Assembly: GCF_036507355.1 (NCBI RefSeq)
Contig: NZ_AP027877.1
DNA from: Escherichia coli
GTDB lineage: Bacteria; Pseudomonadota; Gammaproteobacteria; Enterobacterales; Enterobacteriaceae
Strand: one strand, 5' to 3'
Length of the DNA: 64,000 bases
Below the pieces are notes generated by a model. The model was not told the origin of the DNA. It saw only the letters and a list, made by a program, of their open reading frames with translations, and ran no database searches. How positions within the stretch are numbered: the stretch's first letter is position 1; each line of letters opens with the position of its first letter. This document shows, in pieces, positions 17,290 through 47,189 of this stretch. The translations under genes and the position numbers were made by a program.

Positions 17290-17400
<111 letters not shown>

Positions 17401-44769: not shown

Positions 44770-46002
44770 ATGGCAAAGGTATCGCTGGAGAAAGACAAGA
44801 TTAAGTTTCTGCTGGTAGAAGGCGTGCACCAAAAGGCGCTGGAAAGCCTTCGTGCAGCTGGTTACACCAACATCGAATTTCACAAAGGCGCGCTGGATGA
44901 TGAACAATTAAAAGAATCCATCCGCGATGCCCACTTCATCGGCCTGCGATCCCGTACCCATCTGACTGAAGACGTGATCAACGCCGCAGAAAAGCTGGTC
45001 GCTATTGGCTGTTTCTGTATAGGAACAAACCAGGTTGATCTGGATGCGGCGGCAAAGCGCGGGATCCCGGTATTTAACGCACCGTTCTCAAATACGCGCT
45101 CTGTTGCGGAGCTGGTGATTGGCGAACTGCTGCTGCTATTGCGCGGCGTGCCGGAAGCCAATGCTAAAGCGCACCGTGGCGTGTGGAACAAACTGGCGGC
45201 GGGTTCTTTTGAAGCGCGCGGCAAAAAGCTGGGTATCATCGGCTACGGTCATATTGGTACGCAATTGGGCATTCTGGCTGAATCGCTGGGAATGTATGTT
45301 TACTTTTATGATATTGAAAATAAACTGCCGCTGGGCAACGCCACTCAGGTACAGCATCTTTCTGACCTGCTGAATATGAGCGATGTGGTGAGTCTGCATG
45401 TACCAGAGAATCCGTCCACCAAAAATATGATGGGCGCGAAAGAAATTTCACTAATGAAGCCCGGCTCGCTGCTGATTAATGCTTCGCGCGGTACTGTGGT
45501 GGATATTCCGGCGCTGTGTGATGCGCTGGCGAGCAAACATCTGGCGGGGGCGGCAATCGACGTATTCCCGACGGAACCAGCGACCAATAGCGATCCATTT
45601 ACCTCTCCGCTGTGTGAATTCGACAACGTCCTTCTGACGCCACACATTGGCGGTTCGACTCAGGAAGCGCAGGAGAATATTGGCCTGGAAGTTGCGGGTA
45701 AATTGATCAAGTATTCTGACAATGGCTCAACGCTCTCTGCGGTGAACTTCCCGGAAGTCTCGCTGCCACTGCACGGTGGGCGTCGTCTGATGCACATCCA
45801 CGAAAACCGTCCGGGCGTGCTAACTGCGCTGAACAAAATCTTCGCCGAGCAGGGCGTCAACATCGCCGCGCAATATCTACAAACTTCCGCCCAGATGGGT
45901 TATGTTGTTATTGATATTGAAGCCGACGAAGACGTTGCCGAAAAAGCGCTGCAGGCAATGAAAGCTATTCCGGGTACCATTCGCGCCCGTCTGCTGTACT
46001 AA
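44770..46002 (+). CDS. serA: D-3-phosphoglycerate dehydrogenase
   Basis: 410-aa ORF MAKVSLEKDKIKFLLVEGVHQKALESLRAAGYTNIEFHKGALDDEQLKES... Confidence 0.96.
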   Translation: MAKVSLEKDKIKFLLVEGVHQKALESLRAAGYTNIEFHKGALDDEQLKESIRDAHFIGLRSRTHLTEDVINAAEKLVAIGCFCIGTNQVDLDAAAKRGIPVFNAPFSNTRSVAELVIGELLLLLRGVPEANAKAHRGVWNKLAAGSFEARGKKLGIIGYGHIGTQLGILAESLGMYVYFYDIENKLPLGNATQVQHLSDLLNMSDVVSLHVPENPSTKNMMGAKEISLMKPGSLLINASRGTVVDIPALCDALASKHLAGAAIDVFPTEPATNSDPFTSPLCEFDNVLLTPHIGGSTQEAQENIGLEVAGKLIKYSDNGSTLSAVNFPEVSLPLHGGRRLMHIHENRPGVLTALNKIFAEQGVNIAAQYLQTSAQMGYVVIDIEADEDVAEKALQAMKAIPGTIRARLLY

Positions 46003-46022
46003 TTCCCCTTCTCTGAAAATCA

Positions 46023-46053
46023 ACGGGCAGGTCACTGACTTGCCCGTTTTTTT
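46023..46053 (+). terminator. rho-independent terminator of serA
   Basis: Hairpin ACGGGCAGGTCACTGACTTGCCCGT followed by TTTTTTT. Confidence 0.7.
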
Positions 46054-46164
46054 ATCCCTTCTCCACACCGTTGCGCATTCTACTTTGCGAGTATGCTCCA
46101 GAAAATAAATCAAAGTCAGATCAATGCGTTGTGTTTATTTAATGGGGATTTACGATGGCAGGGC

Positions 46165-46310
46165 AGCATGGGGCTGTAACGGTAAAGCCCTCACCGAAGC
46201 GAGGGCTTGAAGGAGAAGGGTTATGATGCGACTTGTCATCATACTGATTGTACTGTTACTCATAAGTTTCCCAGCTTATTAACAGTCAGTCTCAGGGGAG
46301 GAGTAATCCT
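46165..46310 (-). ncRNA. sibC: SibC-type antisense sRNA (antitoxin of ibsC); boundaries approximate
   Basis: The ibsC toxin ORF lies in the serA-ygfA intergenic region where Sib antisense RNAs are known; the RNA itself is inferred from that context, ends not determinable here. Confidence 0.45.
46223..46282 (+). CDS. ibsC: type I toxin IbsC (19-aa hydrophobic peptide)
   Basis: ATG 46223 to TAA 46280-46282 encodes MMRLVIILIVLLLISFPAY; I recall the K-12 peptide with SAY rather than PAY at the end. Confidence 0.7.
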   Translation: MMRLVIILIVLLLISFPAY

Positions 46311-46382
46311 CCCTTACCCTTACTCACTAAATTAGGTTAAAGAATCAACGATGTCAATCAGGGCGATGCAGGTGTGTCGCCC

Positions 46383-46931
46383 TTACCACTCCCAGACTTT
46401 CGACGGTGTAACCACCGCAGGAAGAGGGATATCCCACTCTTCAACGGGAAGTTTTTCCACTAACTGACAATCATGCGCATAACCCACCGGTTGCATTTTA
46501 TAGTGCTGCCAGTTTTGTAAAGTCCGATCATAAAAACCACCGCCCATTCCCAGGCGCTGGCCGTACTCATCAAAGGCGACCAGCGGTGTGATCAACACGT
46601 CTAATCGGGAAAGGGGTAGCACGTCACGCACATCCAATTTTGGCTCATGGATCTTCAACCTGTTCATCACCAGTTCGCTTTGCGGATGGTAATTCAGGAA
46701 CAGCAAATTACCGGCACTAAAGGGATGCAAAACTGGAAGATATACGCGCTTACCGGCGCGCCAGAGTTGTTCTATAAGCGGCTGGGTGTCGAGTTCTCCA
46801 TCAAAAGAGAGGAATACAGCGACCGTATGTGCCATCACCACCGGGGGATAAGTCATCATCCGGGTAGCGGCTTGTTGACCCATTTCCTGCTGTTGTTCCG
46901 GCGTTAACGCACGACGACGTTGCCGAATCAT
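46383..46931 (-). CDS. ygfA: 5-formyltetrahydrofolate cyclo-ligase
   Basis: ORF 46383-47129; 182-aa product from ATG 46931 (MIRQRRRALTPEQQQEMGQQAATRMMTYPPVVMAHTVAVFLSFDG...); an alternative in-frame ATG at 46985 (MTHLPELSL...) lies 19 nt past the 6S RNA 3' end. Confidence 0.85.
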   Translation of the reverse strand: MIRQRRRALTPEQQQEMGQQAATRMMTYPPVVMAHTVAVFLSFDGELDTQPLIEQLWRAGKRVYLPVLHPFSAGNLLFLNYHPQSELVMNRLKIHEPKLDVRDVLPLSRLDVLITPLVAFDEYGQRLGMGGGFYDRTLQNWQHYKMQPVGYAHDCQLVEKLPVEEWDIPLPAVVTPSKVWEW

Positions 46932-47003
46932 TTTGCGGATTTCTTGTCGGGATAATGTCAGTGAGAGTTCTGGTAGATGCGTCATGGCTGGTGCCAGATA
47001 AGA

Positions 47004-47189
47004 AGGGAATCTCCGAGATGCCGCCGCAGGCTGTAACCCTTGAACCCTTGGTTCAAGGTGAATGTGTCGTCGCAGTTTTAAGGCTTCTCGGACGGACCGA
47101 GCATGCTCACCAACCGCGGAGCGCCACATTCTTGTGGTATGAAATATCGGCTCAGGGGACTGGCCCGCTTGCGAACACCTCAGAGAAAT
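47004..47189 (-). ncRNA. ssrS: 6S RNA
   Basis: Reverse complement reads ATTTCTCTGAGGTGTTCGCAAGCGGGCCAGTCCCCTGAGCCGATATTTCATACCACAAGAATGTGGCGCTCCGCGGTTGGTGAGCATGC...GGCATCTCGGAGATTCCCT, the 6S RNA sequence; lies between zapA and ygfA as in E. coli. Confidence 0.9.

What the first reader, a model, noticed from the sequence alone, without database searches (positions are those of the whole stretch)
46165..46310. Type I toxin-antitoxin locus ibsC/sibC between serA and ygfA, with a variant toxin C-terminus
A 19-codon hydrophobic ORF MMRLVIILIVLLLISFPAY, too short for the ORF track, sits in the serA-ygfA intergenic region where the Ibs/Sib module is known. The peptide here ends PAY where I recall SAY in K-12; a proline near the end of a membrane-toxic peptide might alter toxicity.
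Basis: partly seen in the sequence, partly recalled or inferred. Interest (0 to 1): 0.35.

Follow-up and report, generated by a model that had tools for sequence, protein, structure and literature searches.

The report
Known ibsC/sibC toxin-antitoxin, common allele
This is the well-known ibsC/sibC small-toxin/antisense-RNA pair of E. coli; its "variant" proline ending is the common, ancestral form and the laboratory strain K-12 is the odd one out, so the finding is real but ordinary.

Summary
A 19-codon ORF (window 46223-46282, +) encodes MMRLVIILIVLLLISFPAY, and K-12 MG1655 encodes ...SFSAY at the same serA-fau(ygfA) locus. The opposite strand matches Rfam SIB_RNA at 138 bits (gathering score 56), and RefSeq annotates the ORF as ibsC. 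The allele is not unusual. The identical 60-nt ORF is in 1,199 of 5,422 complete E. coli genomes (22%), including Nissle 1917, as RefSeq protein WP_071525914.1. Pro17 is present in 24 of 25 serA/fau-flanked modules from other Enterobacteriaceae and in 48 of 78 unique family ORFs; Ser17 is in 2. PAY is therefore ancestral and K-12's SAY is derived.

The more useful point is at the RNA level. Codon 17 (CCA here, AGC in K-12; all three bases differ) is the antisense of SibC nt 49-51. Han et al. 2010 mutated exactly this triplet (G49CU51) to retarget SibC to ibsD. It lies in the apical loop of hairpin P5, inside target-recognition domain 1. Both alleles fold identically, and cognate pairing is preserved automatically because the antitoxin is cis-encoded. 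Nothing found here supports altered toxicity; the indirect evidence argues against it. Already known; low interest.

The parts
46223..46282 (+). ibsC ORF, 19 codons plus stop: MMRLVIILIVLLLISFPAY
   Evidence: Translation. Identical ORF annotated as ibsC, WP_071525914.1, in strains D8, Nissle and others.
46271..46273 (+). Codon 17, CCA (Pro). It is the antisense of SibC nt 49-51 (UGG), the TRD1 discriminator triplet. K-12 has AGC/GCU.
   Evidence: Alignment to K-12. SibC numbering anchored on Han 2010's G49CU51 and cross-checked with C107UCCUUC113.
46163..46321 (+). ibsC mRNA, 159 nt (coordinates transferred from K-12 mapping)
   Evidence: Han 2010 reports a 159-nt mRNA with an 18-nt 5' overhang beyond the SibC 3' end. 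G50, G51 and G53 fall on G at 46212, 46213 and 46215, opposite SibC C110, C109 and C107. MFE -63.1 kcal/mol, z = -4.2.
46129..46156 (+). Candidate ibsC promoter: TTGTGT (46129-46134), 16 nt, TACGAT (46151-46156), 6 nt before +1. Inferred only.
   Evidence: Read from the sequence relative to the transferred +1. Han 2010 reports conserved promoter elements upstream of the mapped start. The consensus scan did not call it. This stretch is identical to K-12.
46210..46215 (+). Shine-Dalgarno AAGGAG, 7 nt before the ATG; lies inside the TRD2 target
   Evidence: Sequence. Identical to K-12.
46181..46321 (-). SibC antitoxin RNA, 141 nt, fully overlapping the ibsC SD and ORF
   Evidence: Rfam RF00113 at 138.3 bits. 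Ends set by Han 2010 numbering. MFE -55.3 kcal/mol, z = -5.2, same structure as K-12.
46329..46357 (-). SibC promoter: -35 TTGACA (46357-46352), 17 nt, -10 TAATTT (46334-46329)
   Evidence: Both hexamers are identical to K-12; one T/C difference lies in the spacer. The K-12 sibC promoter region is bound by sigma-S RNA polymerase and SibC is seen on northern blots.
46254..46276 (-). TRD1 (SibC +46..+68); nt 48-55 form the apical loop of hairpin P5
   Evidence: Han 2010 definition. Coordinates. Loop 48-55 unpaired in the MFE, mean unpaired probability 0.90.
46207..46223 (-). TRD2 (SibC +99..+115), including single-stranded J1/7 (107-113, CUCCUUC), antisense to the ibsC SD and start codon
   Evidence: Han 2010.. 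Unpaired probability 0.99. Identical to K-12.
46185..46208 (-). SibC terminator hairpin P7 (nt 114-137), followed by UUUACC
   Evidence: 10-bp G+C-rich stem in the MFE structure. The simple terminator scan did not call it because the U-tract is short.

Best explanation
This is an intact, single-copy ibsC/sibC type I toxin-antitoxin module in its ancestral configuration. The + strand makes a ~159-nt mRNA (46163-46321) encoding the 19-aa hydrophobic inner-membrane toxin IbsC. The - strand makes the 141-nt SibC RNA (46321-46181), which is complementary to the whole SD and ORF. SibC contacts the mRNA first through two accessible elements: the P5 apical loop (TRD1, opposite codons 11-18) and single-stranded J1/7 (TRD2, opposite the SD and start codon). 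Pairing then spreads, which blocks translation and leads to RNase III-dependent decay. The PAY ending is the ancestral allele at this locus, and K-12's SAY is a derived substitution of the whole codon. That codon is also the TRD1 specificity triplet (SibC 49-51: UGG here, GCU in K-12). Because the antitoxin is cis-encoded, both partners change together and cognate repression is kept. Shown here: the sequence, the Rfam and synteny membership, allele frequencies, outgroup states, the position of the triplet in the RNA, and identical predicted folds. Inferred from K-12 experiments: transcript ends, the pairing pathway and toxicity.
For: Rfam SIB_RNA 138.3 bits against a gathering score of 56. RefSeq ibsC annotation and serA-ibsC-fau-ssrS synteny in K-12 and D8. 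The ORF, SD, TRD2 and SibC promoter hexamers are identical to K-12; only 4 SibC positions differ (G18A, G49U, C50G, U51G), and all lie in apical loops. Both SibC alleles give the same MFE structure at -55.3 kcal/mol, matching the P1/P2/P5/P6/J1-7/P7 architecture probed by Han 2010. Han 2010 changed G49CU51 to UGC to retarget SibC to ibsD. The identical ORF is in 1,199 of 5,422 genomes, as protein WP_071525914.1 in D8, Nissle and IMT5155. Pro17 is in 24 of 25 serA/fau-flanked modules of other genera, all with single-module spacers of 367-483 nt and SIB_RNA hits in 5 of 5 tested. Pro17 is in 48 of 78 unique family ORFs and Ser17 in 2. R3 and L11 are retained; the matching positions were the only ones whose alanine substitution abolished toxicity in Salmonella IbsA.
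Against: There are no expression or toxicity data for this strain or this allele. The primary IbsC mutagenesis paper (Mok 2010) and Fozo 2008 could not be read. Reviews say the C-terminal part (residues 6-19) is needed for toxicity, so an effect of S17P on potency is not excluded. The predicted mRNA hairpin loop around codon 17 is tighter here (4 nt, UCCC) than in K-12 (6 nt). SibC nt 49-51 are also slightly less accessible (0.81 against 0.99), which could alter pairing kinetics. Transcript ends are transferred from K-12, not measured.
Confidence: 0.9

Rival explanations
1. The proline at position 17 materially weakens or changes the toxicity of IbsC. The window would then carry an attenuated toxin.
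For: Reviews of Mok 2010 state that the C-terminal and central residues (6-19) are required for IbsC toxicity. Proline is a helix breaker and the change is non-conservative.
Against: Pro17 is the majority state of the family (48 of 78) and nearly fixed at this locus in other genera (24 of 25), which is not what a damaging residue would show. K-12 IbsB and IbsE have Pro at the same position. The alanine scan of Salmonella IbsA lost activity only at residues 3 and 11. IbsC is reported to tolerate extensive mutation. Position 17 is 3 residues from the C-terminus, beyond most of the membrane-spanning stretch.
Confidence: 0.08
2. The single PAY module is not a retained ancestral state. It would be a secondary collapse of the tandem ibsC pair seen in about a third of E. 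coli genomes, by unequal crossing-over that joined the serA-side flank of copy 1 to the body of copy 2.
For: The window's first 160 nt match O157 copy 1 (157/160). Its 5'-UTR/TRD2 segment is identical to copy 2 (60/60, against 57/60 for copy 1). Codon 17 (CCA) and the downstream flank also match copy 2 best.
Against: K-12 and Nissle show the same mosaic, so it is a property of all single-copy alleles. It is equally expected if the tandem arose by duplication and the new serA-side copy then diverged. All 23 outgroup loci with both flanks have single-module spacers and Pro17. This makes single copy with Pro17 the parsimonious ancestor.
Confidence: 0.12
3. The module is a decaying, non-functional remnant.
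For: No expression data here. The simple promoter and terminator scans did not call the SibC promoter or terminator.
Against: The ORF, SD, both promoter regions and the terminator hairpin are intact and virtually identical to the experimentally active K-12 locus. There is a full-length Rfam match. The exact ORF is conserved in 1,199 genomes.
Confidence: 0.02

Closest known systems
ibsC/sibC of E. coli K-12 MG1655 (Fozo et al. 2008; Han et al. 2010, PMC2943612)
   Same: Same locus (serA-fau), same architecture, and 155 of 159 nt of the transcript span identical. TRD2, SD and promoter hexamers are identical, and the predicted SibC fold is the same.
   Different: Codon 17 is CCA (Pro) instead of AGC (Ser), so SibC 49-51 is UGG instead of GCU. 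There is also G18A in the P2 loop, one T/C change in the SibC promoter spacer, and an 8-bp deletion upstream near 46068.
IbsB and IbsE of K-12 (paralogs at yegL-mdtA and yqiK-hldE)
   Same: Same family and length class. Pro at the equivalent position: IbsB ...SFPAY, IbsE ...SFPTY.
   Different: Different loci and different N-terminal residues (K3). Their TRD1 and TRD2 sequences are 4-8 mismatches away from the window's, so they are non-cognate.
Tandem ibsC modules of E. coli O157:H7 and many B1/E-type strains
   Same: The fau-proximal copy carries CCA at codon 17 (…SLPAY in O157, …SFPAY plus V5A in 2013C-4081), and its UTR is identical to the window's.
   Different: Those genomes have a second, serA-proximal copy (…SFGAY, codon GGA, plus one TRD2 change). 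The window has one module in a 380-nt spacer against 781 nt.
Salmonella Typhimurium IbsA/SibA (bioRxiv 10.1101/2025.05.26.656083)
   Same: A 19-aa Ibs toxin with a cis-antisense Sib RNA, a basic residue at position 3 and Leu11.
   Different: It is at the yqiK-rfaE(hldE) locus. Binding to FoF1 ATP synthase a/b subunits was shown for that protein only; whether IbsC does the same is untested.

Membership tests
Ibs/Sib type I toxin-antitoxin (Rfam RF00113 SIB_RNA; NCBI 'type I toxin-antitoxin system toxin IbsC') | Antisense RNA matching the SIB_RNA covariance model above its gathering score | tested here: met
   138.3 bits against 56, model positions 1-147 of 147, minus strand 46357-46207. The hit includes the promoter.
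Ibs/Sib type I toxin-antitoxin | An 18-19-codon highly hydrophobic ORF on the opposite strand, with SD and ORF wholly covered by the sRNA | tested here: met
   ORF 46223-46282 and SD 46210-46215 lie inside SibC 46181-46321.
Ibs/Sib type I toxin-antitoxin | Family sequence signature MM-(basic)-x-V-I-I-L...L11...S/A-x-x-A-Y | tested here: met
   MMRLVIILIVLLLISFPAY compared with 78 unique family ORFs. R3 and L11 are present (for their importance).
ibsC/sibC orthologue specifically | Position between serA and fau(ygfA), upstream of ssrS | tested here: met
   serA 44770-46002, fau 46383-46985, 6S RNA 47189-47006. The order is the same in K-12 and D8.
ibsC/sibC orthologue specifically | Two accessible target-recognition domains (TRD1 in the P5 loop, TRD2 in J1/7) in the SibC fold | tested here: met
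   The predicted MFE reproduces P1, P2, P5, P6, J1/7 and P7. Unpaired probability is 0.90 for loop 48-55 and 0.99 for 107-113. This is in silico only.
Ibs/Sib type I toxin-antitoxin | Own promoter and terminator for the sRNA | tested here: met
   TTGACA-17 nt-TAATTT with hexamers identical to K-12, and the P7 hairpin followed by UUU. The generic scan did not call either. K-12 promoter activity is documented.
Ibs/Sib type I toxin-antitoxin | Peptide is toxic when over-expressed, and toxicity is repressed by the cognate Sib RNA | not testable with these tools
   Known for K-12 IbsC/SibC. Not tested for the P17 allele.

The most novel reading that the evidence does not exclude
Codon 17 of ibsC, equivalent to SibC nt 49-51, may behave as a within-species 'address' polymorphism. 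E. coli lineages carry different TRD1 triplets at the same locus (CCA, CCG, AGC, GGA). Tandem copies always differ there. The alleles may co-vary with which other ibs modules the genome holds. For example, strain D8, which matches the window exactly, lacks ibsD, the paralog whose TRD1 target is closest to this SibC. Under this reading the toxin's residue 17 is largely a by-product of selection on antitoxin RNA orthogonality rather than on the peptide.
Probability: 0.2. Interest if true: 0.4.

Novelty: already known. Interest (0 to 1): 0.12.

Why it matters
It matters little for discovery. The locus, its mechanism and this exact peptide (RefSeq WP_071525914.1) are already catalogued. The useful corrections are these. 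K-12 is not the reference state for IbsC; PAY is. The S/P difference should be read first as a change in the antitoxin's TRD1 recognition loop and only second as a peptide change. Anyone using K-12 SibC or ibsC constructs (reporters, cloning-selection cassettes, artificial sRNA scaffolds) in non-K-12 strains should expect a 3-nt mismatch in the TRD1 loop against the resident allele.

Tried and rejected
(1) Gene conversion from a K-12 paralog as the source of CCA. No K-12 paralog has CCA in the same context (ibsB CCC, ibsE CCG, ibsD GCA, ibsA CAG), and the outgroups make CCA ancestral, so I rejected this.

(2) Reading the primary papers. Fozo 2008 and Mok 2010 are not held, and neither is Fozo's MMBR review. 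I relied on Han 2010 and on secondary statements.

(3) An ungapped clustering test of variable sites was invalid because one allele has a 1-nt indel. I redid it on a MAFFT alignment.

(4) Testing whether PAY genomes lack ibsD. The totals are similar: about 1,193 genomes without an ibsD-type module against 1,199 with the exact PAY ORF. No per-genome join is possible with these tools. Two guesses at the hldE-locus coordinates, in Nissle and strain 746, landed in genomic islands, so I abandoned this.

(5) Pfam, NCBIfam and PDB searches need at least 20 residues and cannot take the 19-aa peptide, so I did not attempt them.

(6) The generic promoter/terminator scan found only the serA terminator (46022-46048) and neither Sib nor ibs signals. 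I placed those signals by homology to K-12 mapping instead.

Full report
**1. What is there.** Window 46223-46282 (+) is a 19-codon ORF encoding MMRLVIILIVLLLISFPAY. It sits in the 380-nt spacer between serA (44770-46002, +) and fau/ygfA (46383-46985, -), followed by 6S RNA (47189-47006, -) and zapA. K-12 MG1655 and strain D8 have the same gene order, and RefSeq annotates the ORF as ibsC in both. The opposite strand matches Rfam SIB_RNA over the full model at 138.3 bits (gathering score 56, E = 6e-30). It is the only Sib hit in the 64-kb window. The K-12 peptide ends SFSAY.

**2. Anatomy in window coordinates.** Han et al. 2010 (PMC2943612) retargeted SibC to ibsD by changing "G49CU51 to UGG... 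UGC" — specifically G49CU51 to UGC — and C107UCCUUC113.
- GCU is the reverse complement of the K-12 Ser17 codon AGC. Anchoring nt 49-51 on codon 17 puts SibC +1 at 46321 and its 3' end at 46181 (141 nt). Nt 107-113 then read CUCCUUC, exactly as published, which validates the numbering.
- The SibC promoter is TTGACA (46357-46352), 17 nt, TAATTT (46334-46329). Both hexamers are identical to K-12. In K-12 that promoter region is bound by sigma-S RNA polymerase, and the RNA is seen on northern blots.
- Han et al. report a 159-nt ibsC mRNA with an 18-nt 5' overhang beyond the SibC 3' end. That gives 46163-46321. The check holds: mRNA G50, G51 and G53 fall on G residues 46212, 46213 and 46215, opposite SibC C110, C109 and C107.
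- TRD1 (+46..+68) is 46276-46254, and TRD2 (+99..+115) is 46223-46207, covering the SD (AAGGAG, 46210-46215) and the A of the start codon.

**3. The difference from K-12.** Across the 159-nt transcript span only four positions differ, and all are in SibC apical loops.
- They are G18A in the P2 loop and G49U, C50G, U51G in the P5 loop.
- Both SibC alleles give the same MFE structure at -55.3 kcal/mol (z about -5.2 and -5.5). It shows P1, P2, the P5 hairpin with an 8-nt loop at 48-55, the P6 hairpin with loop 86-93, single-stranded J1/7 (107-113), and the P7 terminator. This is the architecture Han et al. probed.
- The triplet is predicted mostly unpaired in both alleles, 0.81 here and 0.99 in K-12.
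- On the mRNA side codon 17 also lies in a hairpin apical loop. The predicted loop is 4 nt (UCCC) here and 6 nt (UUCAGC) in K-12.
- The amino-acid change is thus the coding-strand image of a change in the TRD1 recognition loop. Because SibC is cis-encoded, complementarity to its own mRNA is preserved by construction.

**4. How common, and which state is ancestral.**
- The identical 60-nt ORF is present in 1,199 of 5,422 complete E. coli genomes, or 22%. The protein is RefSeq WP_071525914.1 in D8, Nissle 1917 and, with the synonymous CCG, APEC IMT5155.
- The exact K-12 60-mer around the codon is in 1,546 genomes.
- About 1,867 genomes show two places, meaning a tandem pair of modules in a 781-nt spacer. 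I verified this in three genomes. The serA-side copy ends SFGAY (GGA). The fau-side copy ends SLPAY or SFPAY (CCA). This fits the seven ibs genes reported for O157:H7 Sakai.
- One scan of GTDB species representatives used a pattern built only from the conserved N-terminal codons. It gave 25 serA/fau-flanked modules outside E. coli, from Citrobacter, Kluyvera, the Klebsiella oxytoca group, Pseudocitrobacter and Escherichia sp. E1V33. Of these, 24 have Pro17, mostly CCA, and one has Ala.
- All 23 loci with both flanks have spacers of 367-483 nt, which fits one module. Five of five tested have a SIB_RNA hit above the gathering score.
- Family-wide, Pro17 is in 48 of 78 unique ORFs and Ser17 in 2.
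- A single copy with Pro17 is therefore the ancestral state. The window retains it, K-12's Ser17 is derived, and the tandem is a derived duplication.
- A "collapsed tandem" origin cannot be formally excluded. The mosaic that suggests it (serA-side flank like copy 1, UTR identical to copy 2) is shared by K-12 and Nissle. It is equally expected if copy 1 diverged after a duplication.

**5. Variation concentrates in the RNA contact elements.**
- In a MAFFT alignment of 10 distinct ibsC-type alleles, 16 SibC positions vary. Ten of them lie in the 27 nt of the P2, P5 and P6 loops plus J1/7 (hypergeometric P = 5e-5). The only run of four adjacent variable columns is SibC 49-52 (permutation P = 0.03).
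- Two caveats apply. The alleles were picked by identity class rather than at random. Loops also vary more than stems in any structured RNA.
- At the peptide level, non-conservative variation is confined to residues 3-4 (antisense of the P6 loop) and 16-17 (the P5 loop).
- In other genera at this locus Pro17 is fixed and residue 16 varies instead (Y, W, C, L, F, T).
- This extends to natural alleles what Han et al. noted for the five K-12 paralogs. A search of the held literature after 2010 found no paper addressing it. That shows only that none is held, not that none exists.

**6. Cross-talk.**
- Against K-12 paralogs, the window's TRD1 is closest to ibsD, with 2 mismatches in 23 nt and a longest perfect run of 14. 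K-12 SibC has 4 mismatches and a run of 12.
- TRD2 remains 6-8 mismatches from ibsA, B, D and E.
- Strain D8, the only genome identical to the window over the whole spacer, has no ibsD module. About 22% of genomes lack one. I could not test whether this is linked to the PAY allele.

**7. Toxicity.** There is no direct evidence on S17P.
- Indirect evidence against an effect is as follows. Pro17 is prevalent and conserved (section 4). IbsB and IbsE have Pro at this position. In Salmonella IbsA only H3A and L11A abolished toxicity in an alanine scan, and the window peptide keeps R3 and L11 (a preprint on a different paralog). IbsC is reported to tolerate extensive mutation.
- Evidence that keeps the question open is that residues 6-19 are reported as the required region. 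I could not read the primary mutagenesis paper.

**8. Verdict.** The finding is a correctly identified, already catalogued type I toxin-antitoxin module carrying the common ancestral allele. Novelty: already known. Interest: low (0.12). The one point worth keeping is that the S/P difference is the TRD1 discriminator triplet of the antitoxin RNA.

Noticed in passing
window 46068/46069 (between the serA terminator 46022-46048 and the ibsC promoter): The window lacks 8 bp (CGTTGCCG) that K-12 and O157 have, where the sequence reads as an imperfect 8-bp tandem (CGTTGCCG CGTTGCGC). Only 6 of 5,425 genomes are at least 99% identical over the whole 380-nt spacer, and only strain D8 (river water, Panama) is 100% identical. 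This deletion, not the PAY codon, is the rare feature of the locus.
   Followed up: partly
serA-fau spacer in other E. coli: L012 1053-1833 (O157:H7 FRIK944), L005, L008, L045: About a third of complete E. coli genomes (about 1,867 of 5,422) carry two tandem ibs/sib modules here. The copies differ mainly at the TRD1 triplet (GGA against CCA, plus TTC/TTG at codon 16) and by one base in TRD2.
   Followed up: yes
L134 (strain D8, yqiK-hldE spacer); L044 (E. coli SCPM-O-B-8794): The genome that matches the window exactly has only ibsE and no ibsD between yqiK and hldE. About 1,193 of 5,417 genomes likewise have only an ibsE-type best match. This total is close to the 1,199 genomes with the exact PAY ibsC ORF, but I could not test whether they are the same genomes.
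   Followed up: partly
L013-L130, serA/fau-flanked modules of Citrobacter, Kluyvera and Klebsiella: In other genera Pro17 is fixed, and the hypervariable residue is position 16 (Tyr, Trp, Cys, Leu, Phe, Thr). Within E. coli, residue 17 varies. The variable box therefore shifts by one codon but stays in the SibC P5 loop.
   Followed up: partly
window 47006-47189 (-): 6S RNA (ssrS), Rfam RF00013 at 139.3 bits, immediately upstream of fau on the minus strand, as in K-12. The longest mechanical ORF for fau (46383-47129) runs into it, whereas the RefSeq fau is 603 nt.
   Followed up: no
window 17333-17375 (+): Rfam RF02751 ES036 (CssrF) sRNA match at 53.5 bits (gathering score 37.6). It is the only other Rfam hit in the window. 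No tRNA genes are present in the 64 kb.
   Followed up: no
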